Assembly: GCA_024278765.1 (NCBI GenBank)
Contig: JAJRSM010000034.1
Coordinates: 12,051 to 76,050, forward strand
From: Deltaproteobacteria bacterium
GTDB lineage: Bacteria > Desulfobacterota > GWC2-55-46 > DRQE01
DNA length: 64,000 nt
Direction of reading: 5' to 3'
Positions 9,919-48,797 of this stretch are shown one piece after another. The notes beneath the pieces were generated by a model, which made no database searches, was not told the DNA's origin, and saw only the letters and a program-made list of their open reading frames with translations. A program made the position numbers and the translations under genes. Numbering within the stretch: position 1 is the first letter of the stretch; every line of letters starts with the position of its first letter.

Positions 9919-9990
9919 CACCTGCGGTGCGGCACCAGTCCAGTAGTAAGGTATGAGCCGTGCGTAGTCAGTAATTACCAAGGTGGATTT
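9919..9990. repeat. Stop-adjacent CACCTGCGGTG-containing element, copy A (directly 3' of leuA)
   Basis: 'CACCTGCGGTGcGGCaccAGTCCAGTAgtaAG...GCGTAGTcAgTAAT' aligns with the element directly 3' of pyrC (37498-37570). Short hairpin GCACC-tgc-GGTGC. Confidence 0.55.
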
Positions 9991-10352
9991 GCTGTACGCA
10001 GTACCACCTTCTTTGGAAAAAGGGGATTGAGGGGGACTGTTTTGTTTTGGTTTGGTTATGAAACGACGTGATAATCTCGTACTTGTTTTAAATAAGCGGT
10101 TTGTGATGTTTTGGGGTAATTTTTTTAAAGAGAGTTATCCCGGGTCGATTACGGTACTGTTGCAGTAACGTAGGGCAAGGCTTTAGCCTTGCGGTCTTTA
10201 ACGTCGTGTTGGCATTAAAAGACGCAACCCTGAAGGGTTGCCCTAGATAGACCTTACTGTTTTTGAGAACGGGATAGAAGCGGATTTGTTTTTGTATTTA
10301 AATCTATAAATGAGTTAGTAGAATAACTATAGAAAGAGAGGCTAATCTAATT

Positions 10353-17139: not shown

Positions 17140-17448
17140 ATGACGATCTTTAGATGCCAGAGTTGTAGAAGAGAATTGCCGCGTGAAGGCATAAAATACG
17201 TTGTAGAGGTCAGGAGTTTTGCTGATTTTGACGGCTATCTGGAAGAATATCCAGGTGATATTGATGATGGTTTAGAGGAACTTCTGGATGCAATGGAGAA
17301 TATAGATCCATGCACGATGGAGGACGATGTCTATATGGAGCATACCTATATCGTATGTAAGTCTTGTAGAGACCGCTTTGCAAGAGATCCTTTTCATACA
17401 GAGACCTTTGCCGAGGCAGAAGAGATCGCCAAGGGAACACTGCATTAA
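17140..17448 (+). CDS. Hypothetical acidic zinc-ribbon protein
   Basis: 102 aa with 'CQSC' near the N-terminus and 'CKSC' near the C-terminus. Has its own promoter and RBS and is followed by a strong terminator. No family recognised. Confidence 0.5.
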   Translation: MTIFRCQSCRRELPREGIKYVVEVRSFADFDGYLEEYPGDIDDGLEELLDAMENIDPCTMEDDVYMEHTYIVCKSCRDRFARDPFHTETFAEAEEIAKGTLH

Positions 17449-17478
17449 TCAAAGCTCTTATGTCAAGCAATGACCAAA

Positions 17479-17505
17479 GGGAGTCGCATAGCGACTCCCT
17501 TTTTT
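17479..17505 (+). terminator. Rho-independent terminator (GGGAGTCGC-ata-GCGACTCCC followed by T6)
   Basis: Perfect 9-bp stem and a U-tract, directly after the zinc-ribbon ORF. Confidence 0.8.
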
Positions 17506-18228
17506 GTGGTTTGCTGCGCACGGTAAAGAACAACCTAACATGTCACCCTGAACTTGATTCAGGGTCTGTATTTGTTTTTGCGCAAGGTGATAAAGCAAGA
17601 ACAGATGCTGAACTAAATTCAGCATGACAAATAGGGTGTTTAGTTATAATCGTTGCTGATAACTATCTGGCGATTTTGCGACAAAGGTGCTTTGCTCTGC
17701 GCAGGAGTTTGCCCCACCGCAGGTGGTGCTGCGCACGGTAAAGAACAACCTAAGATGCCACCCTGAACTTGATTCAGGGTCTGTATTTGTTTTTGCGTAA
17801 GGTGATAAAGCAAGAACAGATGCTGAACTAAATTCAGCATGACAAATATGGTATTTAGTTGTAATCGTTGCTGATAACTATCTGCTGATTTTGCGACGAA
17901 GGTGCTTTGCTCTGCGCAGAAGTTTGCCCTACCGCAGGTCGGCTTCCCCTAGGTGGGCGTTTGTAAGGTCGGCAAAGTGTTTTAAGATGGTTCGGAAAGG
18001 CGCGTAGCAGGGTGTGACCCAATGAATTTGTCCCACCGCAGGAGTTTGCCCCACCGCAGGTGGTGCTGCGCACGGCAAATTAATCAATATGATTAATTAC
18101 TACGCGTTGCACGGAACTTTCTGATGCGCTTCGCTCACCGCAGGTGCGCAAAGTAAATGCATTAACCAGGTTTTGTCTTTGCGGCGAAGCCGCTTTGCTC
18201 TCCGCAGGAGTGCCGCCCCGCATGGGGC
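17506..18228. repeat. Complex non-coding repeat locus. A ~215-bp unit is tandemly duplicated (17513-17727, 17728-17942), with a third partial copy from about 18065. Each unit carries hairpins CCCTGAA-cttga-TTCAGGG and ATGCTGAA-ctaaa-TTCAGCAT and multiple CACCGCAGGTG motifs.
   Basis: Read directly. Units are more than 95% identical. Minus-strand ORFs 17640..17840 and 17855..18073 are near-identical repeat artefacts. The locus lies between convergent genes. Confidence 0.75.
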
Positions 18229-19002
18229 TTATTTGCCGAGCGGTAGGCGTTTTGCATTTATATCGGGCAGGCCGGCGGCTATGATTTTTTCTGCTGTTGT
18301 TTTGAAATCATAGCCGACCAGGTGGAATTCTATTTCATATGTTGCGGAGTTAAAGGTAAGAAAGCCTGCCCTTGGATCTCCGTCTCGTGGCTGCCCTACA
18401 GAGCCCGGATTTATGAGGTATAGCTTGTCTTTTTCGATCTTGATTTTTTCTTTGTGAGGTGTTGGCAACTCTTTGATTGTATCTTCGATATGGTCAAGGG
18501 TTGAGTCTCCTGTCGGGGTTAAAGAGTATATACTCCTTCTGTGTGTATGCCCCAGAAATGCCAGAGGCAGGGTGCGGGCATCCAGCATTAGCTTGAAGGC
18601 AGCGGCTGCTGCGTATTTTGAACTTATATATTTATTTGTTATATCTTTTGGTGAGTGTAAGGCTATGAAGAGGTTGTCAACTGCGATCTCTGGTGGAAGA
18701 TCTTGTAGGAAGTCTTTATTTTCTTTTGTTAGTCTTTCCCTAGTCCATAGGATGGATTTTTCTGCTGGCTCGTTAAGGTTGTAAGGATCAGTCGTTGATA
18801 CCGCCTCTTCGTCGTGGTTGCTGGCTATGGCGGTTATCGCCAGGTCTTTTATCAGGGCCACGCACTCGTTCGGGTCAGCATTGTAGCCGACTATATCGCC
18901 GAGACTTACAATGCGGTCTACTTCCAGCTCACTGACGTGGTTAAGCACGGCGTGTAGGGCCGCAATGTTTGAGTGTATGTCTATGAGCACTGCGTAGCGC
19001 AT
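18229..19002 (-). CDS. Metallophosphoesterase (calcineurin-like, YfcE/MJ0936-type)
   Basis: 257 aa; 'DIHSNIAALHAV', 'GDIVGYNADP' and 'GHTHRR' are the metal-ligand motifs of the calcineurin-like phosphoesterase fold. Confidence 0.75.
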   Translation of the reverse strand: MRYAVLIDIHSNIAALHAVLNHVSELEVDRIVSLGDIVGYNADPNECVALIKDLAITAIASNHDEEAVSTTDPYNLNEPAEKSILWTRERLTKENKDFLQDLPPEIAVDNLFIALHSPKDITNKYISSKYAAAAAFKLMLDARTLPLAFLGHTHRRSIYSLTPTGDSTLDHIEDTIKELPTPHKEKIKIEKDKLYLINPGSVGQPRDGDPRAGFLTFNSATYEIEFHLVGYDFKTTAEKIIAAGLPDINAKRLPLGK

Positions 19003-25911: not shown

Positions 25912-26191
25912 TTGTTGCACTCCTTTTGTTTTTTTGTTGTTATGCTGAACTTGTTTCAGCATCTGTTTTGTTTTTTGTCGAATAAAGACAGATCCTGAAA
26001 TAGATCTCGTAGCCGTTTTAGATGGTCGGGATGACAAGTCTGGTATGTCTTTTGTATATTGTCGTAGCTGTCTGAGACGGTTTATCGCCAGTCTGGGACA
26101 GGTTGTCGTTATTATCTATTTTCATGTTACGTTAGTACTTTGAAGTTACTACAAAAATGGTGCTGAGGCAAGTAATCTTGAAGGGTTTTTG

Positions 26192-37497: not shown

Positions 37498-37925
37498 CCA
37501 CCTGCGGTGGGGCTAAGTCCAGTAAGTGAGTTCCAGAGCAGCACGTAGTAATAAATTAAATTGATGGATTGGCAGTGCGCAGTACCTGTGTGAGTTAAAG
37601 CAACTTCGTCACAGTAGTAATTATATTTTACTGTCATTGCGAGGAACAGAAGCCCCGAGCATAGCGACGGGGTCTGCGACAAAGCAATCTCGTTTTGTTT
37701 GGAGGCAAACCTTCAGGTTTGCATGTTTACAGGGTTGACTGGTTTAGTGAATTGTCATTGCGAGGAACGTAGGGTCTAAGACCCGTAGAGACGAAGCAAT
37801 CTAGTATTTACTACCCCCTTTGAAAAGGAGAAATTTAAGGGGATTTGAAAGTAGGGCAAGGCTTTAGCTTTGCTTTACTATAAAGCAAAGTAATAAAGTA
37901 AAAACAACGGAGATTATTTTTAGAT
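37498..37925. repeat. Intergenic repeat cluster between pyrC and carA. Contains stop-adjacent CACCTGCGGTG element copy B (37498-37570), two copies of 'TGTCATTGCGAGGAAC-hairpin-GACGAAGCAATCT' (about 37630-37695 and 37753-37810), and a 'GTAGGGCAAGGCTTTAGC' segment shared with 10170-10192.
   Basis: Read directly. Element order and sequence parallel the leuA-leuC spacer. Confidence 0.65.
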
Positions 37926-44040: not shown

Positions 44041-44421
44041 AAAATTGAATTTTCTCTCTTAGAGTTTTAGGTTGTAAATAATTTAAAAGATAGATATTGA
44101 CTGCTTGCAGTGGTGTTAAAGGCTGTAGGTAGATATAGCACTGCGAGTAGTAATAAGTTATATAGATTGATCTATTCGTACGCAATACTCTGAAACAAGT
44201 TCAGGGTGACAGGTTTTGTAGTTAGTGTGTACAGGCGTAAATAGGCATTGGTTTGTTTTATGATAATTAAATTTTCAATATGTCATGCTGAATTCAGTTC
44301 AGCATCTGTCTTTAAGATTTCGATAACAGTAGATCCCTAAACAAGTTAAATCAGGGTAAGAGTCGGAATAGAATGTTAAACTTCTAAATTCACAGAGGTC
44401 TTCTTTTGAGGAGTACCTTTT

Positions 44422-48189: not shown

Positions 48190-48202
48190 AGTGGGTTCGT
48201 AC

Positions 48203-48496
48203 TCATAAATGTCCTGCGGCGTTGCCAGAACTGCAAACTCTAATCCTCAAATACCTAAAAGGTGCTCGCCGCACGGCAAATGCATTAATATGGTTTTGTC
48301 TCATAAATGTCCTGCGGCGTTGCCAGAACTGCAAACTCTAATCCTCAAATACCTAAAAGGTGCTCGCCGCACGGCAAATGCATTAATATGGTTCTGTCTC
48401 ATAAATGTCCTGCGGCGTTGTCAGAACTGCAAACTCTAATCCTCAAATACCTAAAAGGTGCTCGCCGCACGGTAAATGCATTAATATGGTTCTGTA
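48203..48496. repeat. Tandem array of three ~98-bp units (TCATAAATGTCCTGCGGCGTTGCCAGAACTGCAAACTCTAATCCTCAAATACCTAAAAGGTGCTCGCCGCACGGCAAATGCATTAATATGGTTYTGTC)
   Basis: Copies start at 48203, 48301 and 48399 and are almost identical. ORF-track entries 48209..48439 and 48307..48534 are repeat artefacts. The 'GCACGGCAAAT..ATTAAT.ATATGGTT' core recurs at 18060-18160. Confidence 0.8.
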
Positions 48497-48797
48497 CTTC
48501 GCATGGCTGCGAGCTATCTAGGATGTCATCCTGAACTTGATTCAGGATCTGTATTGGTAGTAGGCATAGAAAGATAGCTGCGTTGGCTCTGCCTCCTCGC
48601 AAAGACTTGCTTGGTGGTTTATCTTGTAAAAGGTCTATCTATGCGTCTGCATAGGCAGCAGTACCAGCCTTGCCTTTGAATATTCCACTTCAAATCCTAT
48701 TGACAAATAGCCTCATGGATAGTAATCTAATGTGCTCTGAGTCGAGTGATCTTTTCAGAGTATAGTTACGAAATACTAGAAGAAAAAGGAGTTTTAG

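What the first reader, a model, noticed from the sequence alone, without database searches (positions are those of the whole stretch)
17506..18228. 0.7-kb non-coding repeat field between convergent genes: 215-bp tandem duplication with paired hairpins and CACCGCAGGTG motifs
Immediately after a strong terminator, a ~215-bp unit occurs twice in tandem at more than 95% identity, with a third degenerate copy. Each unit contains two distinct perfect hairpins (CCCTGAA-cttga-TTCAGGG and ATGCTGAA-ctaaa-TTCAGCAT) and several copies of the 11-mer CACCGCAGGTG, the reverse complement of the CACCTGCGGTG found directly after the leuA and pyrC stops. This is not CRISPR, because the units are long and there are no unique spacers. 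It could be an array of small structured RNAs, a REP/BIME-like element nest, or a protein-binding array.
Basis: seen in the sequence. Interest (0 to 1): 0.5.

Follow-up and report, generated by a model that had tools for sequence, protein, structure and literature searches.

The report
Cluster of REP-type palindromic repeats
The 0.7-kb spacer between two converging genes is a pile-up of small hairpin-forming repeat elements of the REP/BIME kind, one composite unit of which has been duplicated in tandem; this is an ordinary class of bacterial repeat DNA, although one of the two repeat families involved appears to be undescribed.

Summary
A 215-bp unit occurs twice in tandem (17512-17939, 94.8% identical), just after a strong terminator and between convergent genes. 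It is not one element but a mosaic of two dispersed repeat families.

- **Family B (the two large hairpins).** This is a head-to-head pair of TGTC/CGTC-tagged REPs, a class described by Di Nocera et al. 2013. The same 87-89-nt heterodimers occur in sphingomonad plasmids and in 95 stretches of viral contigs. Their stem changes are strictly compensatory (124 of 126 copies).
- **Family A (the CACCGCAGGTG motif).** This is an 11-nt mini-hairpin with a GCA loop next to TTTGCC. It forms the two ends of 50-215-nt elements that sit head to tail. I found no description of it.

The orthologous spacer in three related uncultured Thermodesulfobacteriota-like contigs (59-65% flanking-protein identity) is also filled with family A arrays. 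Two of them carry other units independently amplified in tandem. Two closer relatives (82-84%) carry family A elements after the same stop codon before their contigs end.

No Rfam match, promoter-like site, shared internal fold, transposase or RAYT was found. The best reading is a REP/BIME-like cluster, probably part of the 3' untranslated region, with terminator-like hairpins. The duplication most likely arose by unequal recombination between flanking junction repeats. Interest is low to moderate.

The parts
17476..17505 (+). Intrinsic terminator of the 102-aa gene (12-bp stem, ATA loop, T-run). The repeat field starts directly at its T-run in the window and in all three full-length orthologous loci.
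   Evidence: (I8); orthologs
17506..17725 (+). Composite element copy 1 (E1). It contains a family A left end, a family B head-to-head REP dimer, a GCGAC-AAA-GGTGC degenerate mini-hairpin, and two family A right ends.
17514..17527 (+). Family A left end CTGCGCACGGTAAA (mini-hairpin GTGC-TGC-GCAC, here with a degenerate 5' side). Further copies lie at 17729-17742 and 18066-18079.
17541..17629 (.). Family B head-to-head heterodimer 1 (89 nt). It reads TGTC tag, ACCCTGAA-cttga-TTCAGGGT, CTG tail, 33-nt spacer, then the inverted partner CAG, ATGCTGAA-ctaaa-TTCAGCAT, GACA. It can fold as two hairpins or as one long hairpin.
17690..17725 (+). Two tandem family A right ends: CTTTGCT-CTGC-GCA-GGAG (one mismatch) and TTTGCCC-CACC-GCA-GGTG.
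   Evidence: (D3, D5)
17726..17940 (+). Composite element copy 2 (E2). It has 11 substitutions relative to E1, the tag of the first REP is mutated from TGTC to TGCC, and the right end is degenerate (TACCGCAGGTC).
17756..17844 (.). Family B head-to-head heterodimer 2 (stem-loops 17760-17780 and 17820-17840).
17941..18062 (+). Degenerate family A element (E3) ending in two tandem right ends (18027-18044 and 18045-18062).
   Evidence: (D4, D5)
18063..18146 (+). Short family A element (E4, about 84 nt), of the same type as the copies after leuA and pyrC.
18143..18213 (+). Short degenerate family A element (E5) containing the GNA-loop hairpin GCGGC-GAA-GCCGC (18181-18193) and the right end CTCC-GCA-GGAG. 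It is conserved at the same place in relatives L116 and L117.
18215..18228 (.). Mini-hairpin GCCCC-GCAT-GGGGC abutting the metallophosphoesterase stop codon. Orthologs carry different stems at the same place (CCACC/GGTGG, CTCAC/GTGAG, CCCC/GGGG).
9919..10005 (-). Solo short family A element starting at the first base after the leuA stop codon. It is absent from the leuA-leuC spacer of relatives at 78-89% LeuA identity.
37499..37586 (-). Solo short family A element starting two bases after the pyrC stop codon.

Best explanation
The field is a REP/BIME-like cluster: a mosaic of two families of short palindromic dispersed repeats that has accumulated in the spacer between two convergent genes.

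**Family B.** Each large hairpin is a TGTC-tagged REP of the published CGTC superfamily. It has an 8-bp stem that begins with an A-T pair, a 5-nt loop and a short tail. Two of them in inverted orientation, with tags on the outside, form an 89-nt head-to-head heterodimer, which is REPIN-like.

**Family A.** Its basic motif is TTTGCC followed by a 4-bp stem, a GCA loop and the complementary 4-bp stem. One copy in each orientation caps elements of 50-215 nt (GGTG-CTGCGCACGGCAAA ... TTTGCCCACCGCAG-GTG). These elements sit head to tail and share the GTG.

**The 215-bp unit.** It is a recurrent composite: family A left end, family B dimer, family A right end.

**Inferred steps.**
- The tandem copy arose by unequal recombination or slippage between the 43-nt junction repeats that bound it.
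- The field is transcribed as the 3' untranslated region of the metallophosphoesterase operon.
- The hairpins act as REPs do elsewhere: they block 3' exonucleases, or terminate or attenuate transcription. The two family B hairpins face each other, and each is followed by a T-rich tract, so together they form a bidirectional terminator-like module.
- The families spread as non-autonomous elements through single-stranded hairpin recognition by an enzyme encoded elsewhere in the genome.
For: **Anatomy**
- Anatomy and repeat statistics.

**Family B**
- The window has 8 exact CTGAA-N5-TTCAG sites; allowing one mismatch gives 11 sites against 2.0 expected. All 8 exact sites are intergenic.
- In the window and its relatives, 14 of 15 copies keep all three outer stem pairs, using three stem types (ATG/CAT, ATC/GAT, ACC/GGT).
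- The same consensus gives 126 matches in viral contigs. Of these, 124 have complementary stems, 80 carry a CGTC tag, 35 carry a TGTC tag, and CCA is the commonest tail. There are also 16 head-to-head dimers, mostly 87-89 nt.
- Twin copies occur in sphingomonad plasmids.
- Tag, stem, loop and dimer organisation fit the published description of CGTC REPs; the tail deviates from the CCA consensus. [quoted passage not shown]

**Family A**
- Dispersed copies occur in the window.
- The same ends, with different interiors, occur in other MAGs and metagenome contigs.
- Nine different complementary 4-bp stems surround an invariant GCA loop.
- The strict motif occurs 6 times against 0.085 expected.

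**Locus history and composite**
- The orthologous spacer is filled with such arrays in L118, L119 and L120. L116 and L117 also carry family A elements after the stop codon before their contigs end.
- Different units are amplified there: 100 bp x2.4, 84 bp x2.4 and 89 bp x3.2.
- The composite architecture is shared by six copies at three or four different loci.

**Structure and termination**
- The field has 11 terminator-like sites against 1.6 expected.
- T-rich tails follow family B hairpins: 8.2 T per 15 nt against a background of 4.1.
- The whole-field RNA fold has z = -6.3, with each dimer folding as a long hairpin.
Against: - No transposase or RAYT was found in the window (25 ORFs scanned in Pfam).
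- None was found among 8877 six-frame ORFs of the window and all fetched loci. Mobility is therefore inferred, not shown.
- No alignable empty site or target-site duplication was recovered.
- No expression data exist, so the terminator and stabiliser roles are inference from REP biology. The T-rich tails could simply be part of this lineage's element consensus.
- Family A has 4-bp stems and mostly head-to-tail organisation. Published tagged REPs have 5-13-bp stems and rarely form head-to-tail dimers.
- The family B tail is CTG rather than the CCA consensus.
Confidence: 0.8

Rival explanations
1. Family A elements, including the 215-bp composite, are classical MITEs. They would be deletion derivatives of a DDE-transposase insertion sequence, with 14-18-nt imperfect terminal inverted repeats (CTGCG-CAC-GGCAAA / TTTGCC-CAC-CGCAG). 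They would insert into GGTG with duplication of the target, so that repeated insertion into the duplicated target builds head-to-tail arrays.
For: - The ends are imperfect inverted repeats (I3-I6).
- Every copy is preceded by GGTG or GGTA and ends in ...CAG-GTG.
- Interiors vary while the ends are conserved across genomes.
- The element after leuA is missing in relatives.
Against: - No long element with these ends was seen in any locus.
- No transposase was found nearby.
- The GGTG is invariant, so it cannot be told apart from part of the element.
- The asymmetry between the two ends (the CAC direct repeat and different stems) is conserved, and variants preserve local mini-hairpins rather than end-to-end complementarity.
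- There are no hits in plasmids or viral contigs.
Confidence: 0.2
2. The field is an array of binding sites for a DNA-binding protein, such as a nucleoid protein, gyrase or IHF as at E. coli BIMEs, or a dedicated dimeric regulator. The 31-bp junction TTTGCC-CAC-CGCAG-GTG-CTGCG-CAC-GGCAAA would be the palindromic site.
For: - The junction is a near-perfect palindrome reiterated at least 3 times here, and it also occurs in arrays of other genomes (D4, 24, 71).
- The array has been kept at this convergent spacer in relatives down to 59% flanking-protein identity.
Against: - Solo elements carry only half-sites.
- The stems covary while keeping their pairing, which points to hairpin formation rather than duplex sequence readout.
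- No candidate binding protein has been identified.
- This reading is not exclusive of the REP reading, because BIMEs do bind proteins.
Confidence: 0.12
3. The units are genes for small structured RNAs, or one long structured non-coding RNA, with a function of their own.
For: - The whole field folds much better than shuffles (z = -6.3).
- The family B hairpins covary.
- The second REP with its flanks is nearly invariant across six composite copies.
Against: - There is no Rfam match, even at E up to 10.
- No promoter-like site lies inside 17506-18228.
- Short family A elements fold no better than shuffles.
- Fifteen members share only two 4-bp terminal hairpins, with a consensus energy of -6.5 kcal/mol and no compensatory pairs in that alignment.
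- Interiors differ completely between species.
- The same hairpins occur in both orientations relative to neighbouring genes.
Confidence: 0.05
4. Family A elements are attC-like folded recombination sites of an integron-like or other tyrosine-recombinase system. They would have an outer box, an unpaired spacer, an inner box and a variable terminal structure.
For: - Left and right ends could pair as CTGCG/CGCAG and GGCAAA/TTTGCC around an unpaired CAC/CAC, enclosing a variable interior of 20-180 nt.
- The elements form head-to-tail arrays.
Against: - They lack the AAC/GTT core triplets of attC.
- No integrase or cassette ORFs are present.
- Variants break the long-range pairing but keep the local mini-hairpins: CTCAC-TGC-GTGAG paired with CCGGT-GCA-ACCGG in L118, and GTAC-TGC-GTAC with no matching inner box in the element after leuA.
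Confidence: 0.02

Closest known systems
CGTC-tagged REPs (Di Nocera, De Gregorio & Rocco 2013, BMC Genomics 14:522), 8-bp-stem / 5-nt-loop type
   Same: - An unpaired terminal tag, here TGTC, which the paper lists as a common variant.
- An 8-bp stem that begins with A-T, a 5-nt loop and a short tail.
- Alternative stems that stay complementary.
- Head-to-head heterodimers with spacers of 20-100 bp.
- Location between convergent or co-directional ORFs, close to their 3' ends.
- Clusters made of dimers reiterated in tandem together with flanking DNA.
- The stem sequences match copies in sphingomonad plasmids and in viral contigs.
   Different: - The tail is CTG followed by a T-rich tract, instead of CCA.
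- The host is a Thermodesulfobacteriota-like lineage, which that paper does not list among CGTC hosts.
- Here the dimers are embedded between family A ends.
REPIN / RAYT systems (Bertels & Rainey 2011; Nunvar et al. 2010)
   Same: Two inverted REPs separated by a short spacer that can fold into one long hairpin. They are present in many copies and persist at orthologous positions.
   Different: - REPINs carry GTAG-type tags and depend on a single-copy RAYT gene that is itself flanked by REPs.
- No RAYT was found here, and the published survey says CGTC REPs lack a known dedicated transposase.
E. coli BIMEs (bacterial interspersed mosaic elements)
   Same: Intergenic mosaics built from REP hairpins plus other short conserved motifs. 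Copy number is variable and they often lie in 3' untranslated regions. Their known roles are mRNA stabilisation, termination, and binding of IHF, gyrase and Pol I.
   Different: BIMEs alternate REP orientation and use GTAG REPs of about 35 nt. Here most units (family A) are 11-nt mini-hairpins arranged head to tail. There is no sequence similarity.
MITEs such as Correia/NEMIS elements, and modular BOX elements of Streptococcus pneumoniae
   Same: Elements of 50-215 nt with inverted ends and a variable or modular interior. They occur at high copy number, lie next to genes and can supply terminators.
   Different: No related autonomous insertion sequence is known and no demonstrable target-site duplication was found. 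The ends are mini-hairpins with conserved asymmetry.
Integron attC sites
   Same: Conserved imperfectly palindromic ends with an unpaired central segment, enclosing a variable interior of similar length range.
   Different: There are no AAC/GTT core sites, integrase or cassettes. Covariation supports local hairpins rather than the attC fold.

Membership tests
CGTC-tagged REP superfamily (Di Nocera et al. 2013) | Unpaired terminal tetranucleotide CGTC (TGTC or CCTC are accepted variants) at one end of the hairpin | tested here: met
   TGTC lies at 17541-17544 and GACA (inverted) at 17626-17629 and 17841-17844. Copy 2 has it mutated to TGCC at 17756-17759. In viral-contig copies the tag is CGTC 80 times and TGTC 35 times out of 126. 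Criterion taken.
CGTC-tagged REP superfamily (Di Nocera et al. 2013) | Stem of 8-9 bp beginning with A-T pairs, and a loop of 4-5 nt | tested here: met
   The hairpins are ACCCTGAA/TTCAGGGT and ATGCTGAA/TTCAGCAT, with 8-bp stems and 5-nt loops. The first pair is always A-T. The second pair is T-A in the ATG and ATC types and C-G in the ACC type.
CGTC-tagged REP superfamily (Di Nocera et al. 2013) | Short unpaired tail at the other end, with consensus CCA | tested here: inconclusive
   The tail is CTG followed by a T-rich tract in this lineage. It is CCA in 52 of 126 viral-contig copies and in the sphingomonad copies. A tail is therefore present but its sequence deviates from the consensus.
CGTC-tagged REP superfamily (Di Nocera et al. 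2013) | Many dispersed, mostly intergenic copies, with subfamilies that differ by complementary stem changes | tested here: met
   There are 8 exact copies at 5 intergenic sites in 64 kb. Three complementary stem types are used: 14 of 15 copies in this lineage and 124 of 126 copies elsewhere keep their pairing. A genome-wide count is not possible because only the window is available.
CGTC-tagged REP superfamily (Di Nocera et al. 2013) | Predominant head-to-head dimers (tags outside), often heterodimers, with 20-100-bp spacers | tested here: met
   17541-17629 and 17756-17844 are ACC+ATG heterodimers with tags outside and a 33-nt spacer. The same arrangement occurs in L119, L120 and L121, and in 16 viral-contig dimers. 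One tail-to-tail pair lies at 44184-44310.
REPIN/RAYT system | A single-copy RAYT (Y1 HUH transposase) gene in the genome, typically flanked by the REPs | not testable with these tools
   Only 64 kb of the source genome is available. No Y1 transposase was found among 25 window ORFs. phmmer with E. coli RayT against 8877 ORFs of the window and all loci gave no real hit.
REPIN/RAYT system | A GTAG-type tag 5' of the REP stem | tested here: not met
   Family B carries TGTC/CGTC. Family A carries no GTAG. A separate GTAG-tagged family does exist in the window, at 10170-10246 and 37851-37873.
MITE | Terminal inverted repeats | tested here: met
   Family A has imperfect 14-nt inverted ends, CTGCGCACGGCAAA and TTTGCCCACCGCAG (11 of 14 positions complementary) (I3-I6, 34).
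MITE | Target-site duplication shown by comparing filled and empty sites | tested here: inconclusive
   The flanks are constant: GGTG or GGTA on the 5' side and GTG on the 3' side. Relatives lack the element after leuA, but their spacers are too diverged to align an empty site. A candidate empty site in L036 did not hold up.
MITE | A related autonomous insertion sequence with the same ends | tested here: not met
   No pair of ends spanning more than 300 bp occurs in any locus. Plasmids and viral contigs gave no hit. Whole genomes could not be searched.
CRISPR array | Repeats of 24-48 nt separated by unique spacers of similar length, usually with cas genes | tested here: not met
   The units are 70-215 nt, their interiors are copies of each other, and there are no cas genes in the window.
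Integron attC | R''/R' core sites (RYYYAAC ... GTTRRRY) and a neighbouring intI gene with cassettes | tested here: not met
   The ends have no AAC/GTT cores. There is no integrase. Variants do not keep the long-range pairing.
Any Rfam RNA family | A covariance-model match at the gathering threshold | tested here: not met
   There are 0 matches in the whole window. Only sub-threshold noise appears in 17400-18300 at E up to 10.

The most novel reading that the evidence does not exclude
Family A is an undescribed class of hairpin-guided mobile DNA. Its ends are 11-nt mini-hairpins (C-GCA-G triloops of the very stable GNA type) next to TTTGCC.

The same end motifs occur in organisms from 46% to 71% G+C. 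These include Thermodesulfobacteriota-like MAGs, MAGs labelled Clostridia and Eubacterium, and G+C-rich contigs of unknown taxon.

The elements always sit after GGTG and end in GGTG. This would let each inserted copy recreate the target for the next one and so build head-to-tail arrays. That is the insertion logic of single-strand (HUH/Y1-type) transposition, carried out by an enzyme not yet identified.
Probability: 0.15. Interest if true: 0.55.

Novelty: new member of a known kind. Interest (0 to 1): 0.3.

Why it matters
**Practical value.**
- These repeat nests break metagenome assemblies. Three relatives' contigs end inside them.
- They generate spurious ORFs.
- They can be mistaken for sRNA or CRISPR-like loci. 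Recognising them helps annotation of uncultured Thermodesulfobacteriota.

**Biological value.**
- The locus extends CGTC-type REPs to a lineage where they had not been reported.
- It shows a REP cluster kept at the same convergent spacer across species whose flanking protein is only 59% identical, while its units are turned over and amplified independently.
- It exposes a second mini-hairpin family whose mobilising enzyme is unknown, as is that of CGTC REPs. Such a family could help identify how untagged and CGTC REPs spread.

None of this changes current concepts.

Tried and rejected
- **Known RNA family.** Rfam gave nothing at gathering or permissive thresholds. ARAGORN found nothing in the loci tested.
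- **Structured sRNA units.** Single folds and the consensus fold of 15 members show only the terminal mini-hairpins.
- **Literature by sequence.** No paper holds the family B or family A motifs. Every hit was an unrelated sequence such as a PCR primer. The supplements of the REP survey hold none of these sequences.
- **Source genome.** The exact protein is on record (P0001, an 80-kb NCBI contig), but no DNA could be fetched for it.
- **Strain-level copy number.** A 22-mer specific to the 215-bp unit found nothing in metagenome contigs.
- **Empty-site and target-duplication test.** Relatives lack the leuA element, but their spacers cannot be aligned. A putative empty site for the L061/L100 copies, in L036, was not homologous beyond one hairpin.
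- **Autonomous partner or RAYT.** None was found in the window or in any locus.
- **Family A in plasmids or viral contigs.** None was found.
- **attC-like fold.** Rejected, because variants keep local pairing rather than long-range pairing.
- **Selection on hairpins since the duplication.** None of the 11 substitutions between the two copies fall in the four stem-loops, but this is not significant (P about 0.09).
Full report

Yes. Tandem Repeats Finder reports one array at 17512-17939 with period 215, 2.0 copies, 94% matches and score 779. Gapless comparison gives 213 nt at 94.8% identity, with 11 substitutions and E = 6e-76.

The field begins at the T-run of a 12-bp-stem terminator (17476-17502). 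That terminator follows a 102-aa ORF at 17140-17448 (+) that has no Pfam match. The field ends at the stop codon of a metallophosphoesterase gene at 18229-19002 (-).

Both hairpins are perfect in both copies. CACCGCAGGTG with up to one mismatch occurs 10 times in the window against 0.59 expected. Its reverse complement starts at the first base after the leuA stop (9919) and the second base after the pyrC stop (37499).

Three details need correcting:
- Identity is just under 95%, not above it.
- The exact 11-mer occurs once in unit 1 and not at all in unit 2.
- The 'third degenerate copy' is really three shorter elements (17941-18213) that share only end motifs with the unit.

**2. Anatomy: two repeat families, not one element**

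*Family B.* The two 'distinct' hairpins are one element type in opposite orientations:
- TGTC - ACCCTGAA - cttga - TTCAGGGT - CTG on the + strand.
- TGTC - ATGCTGAA - tttag - TTCAGCAT - CTG on the - strand.

With tags on the outside they form 89-nt inverted pairs at 17541-17629 and 17756-17844. More copies lie at 25937, 44187(-), 44285 and 48528, all intergenic. The window holds 8 exact CTGAA-N5-TTCAG sites; allowing one mismatch gives 11 sites against 2.0 expected.

*Family A.* CACCGCAGGTG is a mini-hairpin (CACC-GCA-GGTG) preceded by TTTGCC. The unit starts with its inverted counterpart, GTGC-TGC-GCAC-GGCAAA. Elements capped by these two ends occur in several forms:
- Solo 80-90-nt copies after leuA (9919-10005, -) and after pyrC (37499-37586, -).
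- Units E4 and E5 inside the field.
- A variant left end in a second tandem array at 48194-48495 (98 bp x3.1).

The field therefore reads: terminator | E1 (215 bp) | E2 (215 bp) | E3 | E4 | E5 | mini-hairpin | stop codon. All elements point the same way and are joined by ...CCGCAG-GTG(GTG)-CTGCGCACGG... junctions.

**3. Evidence from elsewhere**

*Family A in other genomes.* A scan of species-representative genomes with the family A left end returned mostly chance or coding hits. It also returned real arrays in MAG CBDUXY01 (9 loci), in a 'Deltaproteobacteria' MAG (JACRNL01) and in a Thermodesulfobacteriota MAG (L026). These have identical ends and quite different interiors of 51-178 nt. A metagenome scan with the junction found further arrays:
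- Contigs with 46-51% G+C (L123, L126, L127, L131, L133).
- Contigs with 63-71% G+C, where the left and right mini-hairpins are themselves reiterated with 13-19-nt periods.

A complete 49-nt element sits in a MAG labelled Clostridia (L063). The left end is fused to a GTAG REP twice in a MAG labelled Eubacterium (L043).

*The orthologous locus.* Homologs of the metallophosphoesterase led to five relatives' contigs. Synteny (RelA, PBP1A, metallophosphoesterase convergent with the 102-aa gene, then a DEAD/MrfA helicase) is seen in the contigs long enough to show it.

In the three full-length loci, at 59-65% protein identity, the same spacer is 379-768 bp long. It is again filled with head-to-tail family A elements in the same orientation. 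They start at the terminator's T-run (TTTTTTGGTG|CTGCG...) and end at the stop codon. L119 and L120 each hold one family B pair of the same two stem types.

Different units have been amplified there: 100 bp x2.4 and 84 bp x2.4 in L119, and 89 bp x3.2 in L120. L118 shows none.

The two closest relatives, at 82-84% identity, have contigs that stop 52-87 nt after the stop codon, inside the repeats.

By contrast, the leuA-leuC spacer of relatives at 78% and 89% LeuA identity carries no family A element. A third contig at 93% identity shows a different sequence in the 17 nt after the stop before it ends. Individual copies therefore come and go.

*The composite unit.* Left end, family B pair, TTTTGCGrCGAAGnnGCTTTGCC, right end recurs in six copies across three or four different loci. 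The 215-bp unit is therefore a recurrent composite form, duplicated locally here.

**4. Structure and covariation**

*Family B.* In the window and its relatives, 14 of 15 copies keep all three variable outer stem pairs, using three stem types: ATG/CAT, ATC/GAT and ACC/GGT. Three chance matches in unrelated loci keep 0-1 of the three pairs.

The consensus, written so that it does not force pairing, matches 126 sites in 95 stretches of viral contigs with 28-71% G+C. Of these, 124 are complementary. The tag is CGTC 80 times and TGTC 35 times, and the commonest tail is CCA. There are 16 head-to-head dimers, mostly 87-89 nt, and 11 of the 16 are ACC+ATG heterodimers like those in the window. Sphingomonad plasmids carry the same twins.

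*Family A.* I anchored only on TTTGCC and a GCA loop. The four flanking positions then pair in 62-74% of 90 instances, a set that includes chance background matches. The fifth position pairs in only 20%. Nine different complementary stems appear: GTGC/GCAC, CACC/GGTG, CGGT/ACCG, GTAC/GTAC, TCAC/GTGA, CTGC/GCAG, CGCC/GGCG, CTCC/GGAG and CAAC/GTTG.

Beyond these caps the short elements have no shared fold. Single folds give z from -1.4 to +1.6. The consensus of 15 members contains only the two terminal hairpins.

*Whole field.* The field folds with z = -6.3, mainly because each family B pair forms one long hairpin.

**5. Comparison with what is known**

Di Nocera et al. 2013 (PMC3733652) divide REPs into GTAG- and CGTC-tagged superfamilies. 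Their description of CGTC REPs includes:
- a tag that is often TGTC;
- 8-9-bp stems that start with A-T pairs;
- 4-5-nt loops and short tails;
- predominantly head-to-head dimers, often heterodimers, with 20-100-bp spacers;
- location between convergent or co-directional ORFs, close to 3' ends;
- no known dedicated transposase.

Family B meets every one of these except the tail sequence, which is CTG plus a T-rich tract instead of CCA. The paper names no deltaproteobacterial CGTC host.

Family A is REP-like in several respects. It is palindromic, dispersed and intergenic, it abuts stop codons, and its stems covary. It also differs: the stems are only 4 bp, there is no GTAG or CGTC tag, and head-to-tail arrays dominate. 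No paper in the library contains its motifs.

The window also holds GTAG-tagged REPs and a further TGTC-tagged family. The genome is therefore REP-rich in general.

**6. How it most likely works**

*Shown.*
- The field is a mosaic of two dispersed palindromic families.
- It sits between convergent genes.
- It is old at this locus.
- Its units are turned over and amplified independently in each lineage.

*Inferred.*
- The 215-bp duplication arose by unequal recombination or slippage between the 43-nt junction repeats that bound the unit. Those repeats are 17700-17742, 17915-17957 and 18037-18079, at 70-98% identity (D4).
- The field is probably the 3' untranslated region of the metallophosphoesterase operon. 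The + strand gene has its own strong terminator, and no promoter-like site lies inside the field.
- The family B hairpins face each other, and each is followed on its own strand by a T-rich tract. The tracts have 8.2 T per 15 nt, against 4.1 background and 4.6 in viral-contig copies. The scan finds 11 terminator-like sites against 1.6 expected. This makes a bidirectional terminator-like module.
- Family A hairpins directly after stop codons would act as exonuclease blocks, as REPs do in E. coli. That last point rests on established knowledge, not on a test made here.
- Spread by a hairpin-recognising enzyme is inferred from the conserved ends and covarying stems. No transposase or RAYT was found in the window or in any fetched locus.

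**7. Rivals**

- *Classical MITE reading of family A.* This remains possible: the ends are inverted and the GGTG flanks are constant. It lacks both an autonomous partner and an empty site.
- *Protein-binding array.* The 31-bp palindromic junction makes this compatible with the REP reading, but it is untested.
- *sRNA array, attC-like and CRISPR readings.* All three are disfavoured by the tests described above.

**8. Verdict**

This is a genuine feature, correctly noticed. It is a new member of a known kind, namely CGTC-type REP dimers in a new host lineage, together with an apparently undescribed mini-hairpin family.

Interest is low to moderate (0.3). It would rise if family A proves to be a new hairpin-guided mobile element class with its own enzyme.

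Noticed in passing
window 48194-48552: A second tandem array (98 bp x3.1, 97% matches) lies directly after the glutamate dehydrogenase stop codon. Each unit ends in a variant family A left end (GGTGCTCGCCGCACGGCAAATGCATTAAT). A single TGTC-tagged REP follows at 48525-48552. A related array lies at the orthologous place in metagenome contig L133.
   Followed up: partly
window 10170-10246 and 37851-37873: A third repeat family carries a GTAG tag (GTAG-GGCAAGGC-TTTA-GCCTTGC). It forms a head-to-head pair between leuA and leuC and a single copy between pyrC and carA. Its presence suggests the genome may also encode a RAYT.
   Followed up: partly
window 37632-37700 and 37753-37812: Two copies of another TGTC-tagged palindromic element (TGTCATTGCGAGGAAC ... 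GACrAAGCAATCT), with a hairpin in its loop, lie in the pyrC-carA spacer.
   Followed up: no
window 44184-44310 and 25937-25960: A tail-to-tail (tags inside) pair of family B REPs lies between the carB-like gene and recG. A single copy with a long T-tract lies upstream of an MBL-fold gene, where no + strand gene would need a terminator.
   Followed up: partly
L116 (end 6275), L117 (end 1990), L136 (end 2687): The contigs of the closest relatives stop within 17-87 nt after the stop codons of the metallophosphoesterase gene and leuA. These are the places where the window has repeat elements, so the repeats appear to break short-read assemblies.
   Followed up: partly
window 17140-17448: The 102-aa ORF upstream of the field has two CxxC pairs and no Pfam match. 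It is conserved at the same length next to the MrfA-type DEAD-box helicase in L118, L119 and L120. It may be an uncharacterised zinc-ribbon partner of that helicase.
   Followed up: no
L063 (reverse strand, about 1290-1340), L043 (two sites), L129, L130, L132: Family A end motifs occur outside the window's lineage. A complete 49-nt element sits in a MAG labelled Clostridia. The left end is fused to a GTAG REP twice in a MAG labelled Eubacterium. Contigs of unknown taxon with 63-71% G+C carry 13-19-nt tandem reiterations of the left and right mini-hairpins.
   Followed up: partly
L122 1378-1436 (Sulfurovum mangrovi plasmid NZ_CP087125.1): A family B REP pair lies inside an annotated 4Fe-4S dicluster protein gene. 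This is an intragenic REP of the kind reported for Rickettsia palindromic elements.
   Followed up: no
L061 and L100 (MAG CBDUXY01): Two family A elements are inserted at the same position of another repeated about 150-nt sequence (...GGCGCnACGAnnnnGA|element|TGAGGCGTACTTTnAnGTnCGCCGCAAC...). That sequence has no Rfam or tmRNA match and its nature is unknown.
   Followed up: partly
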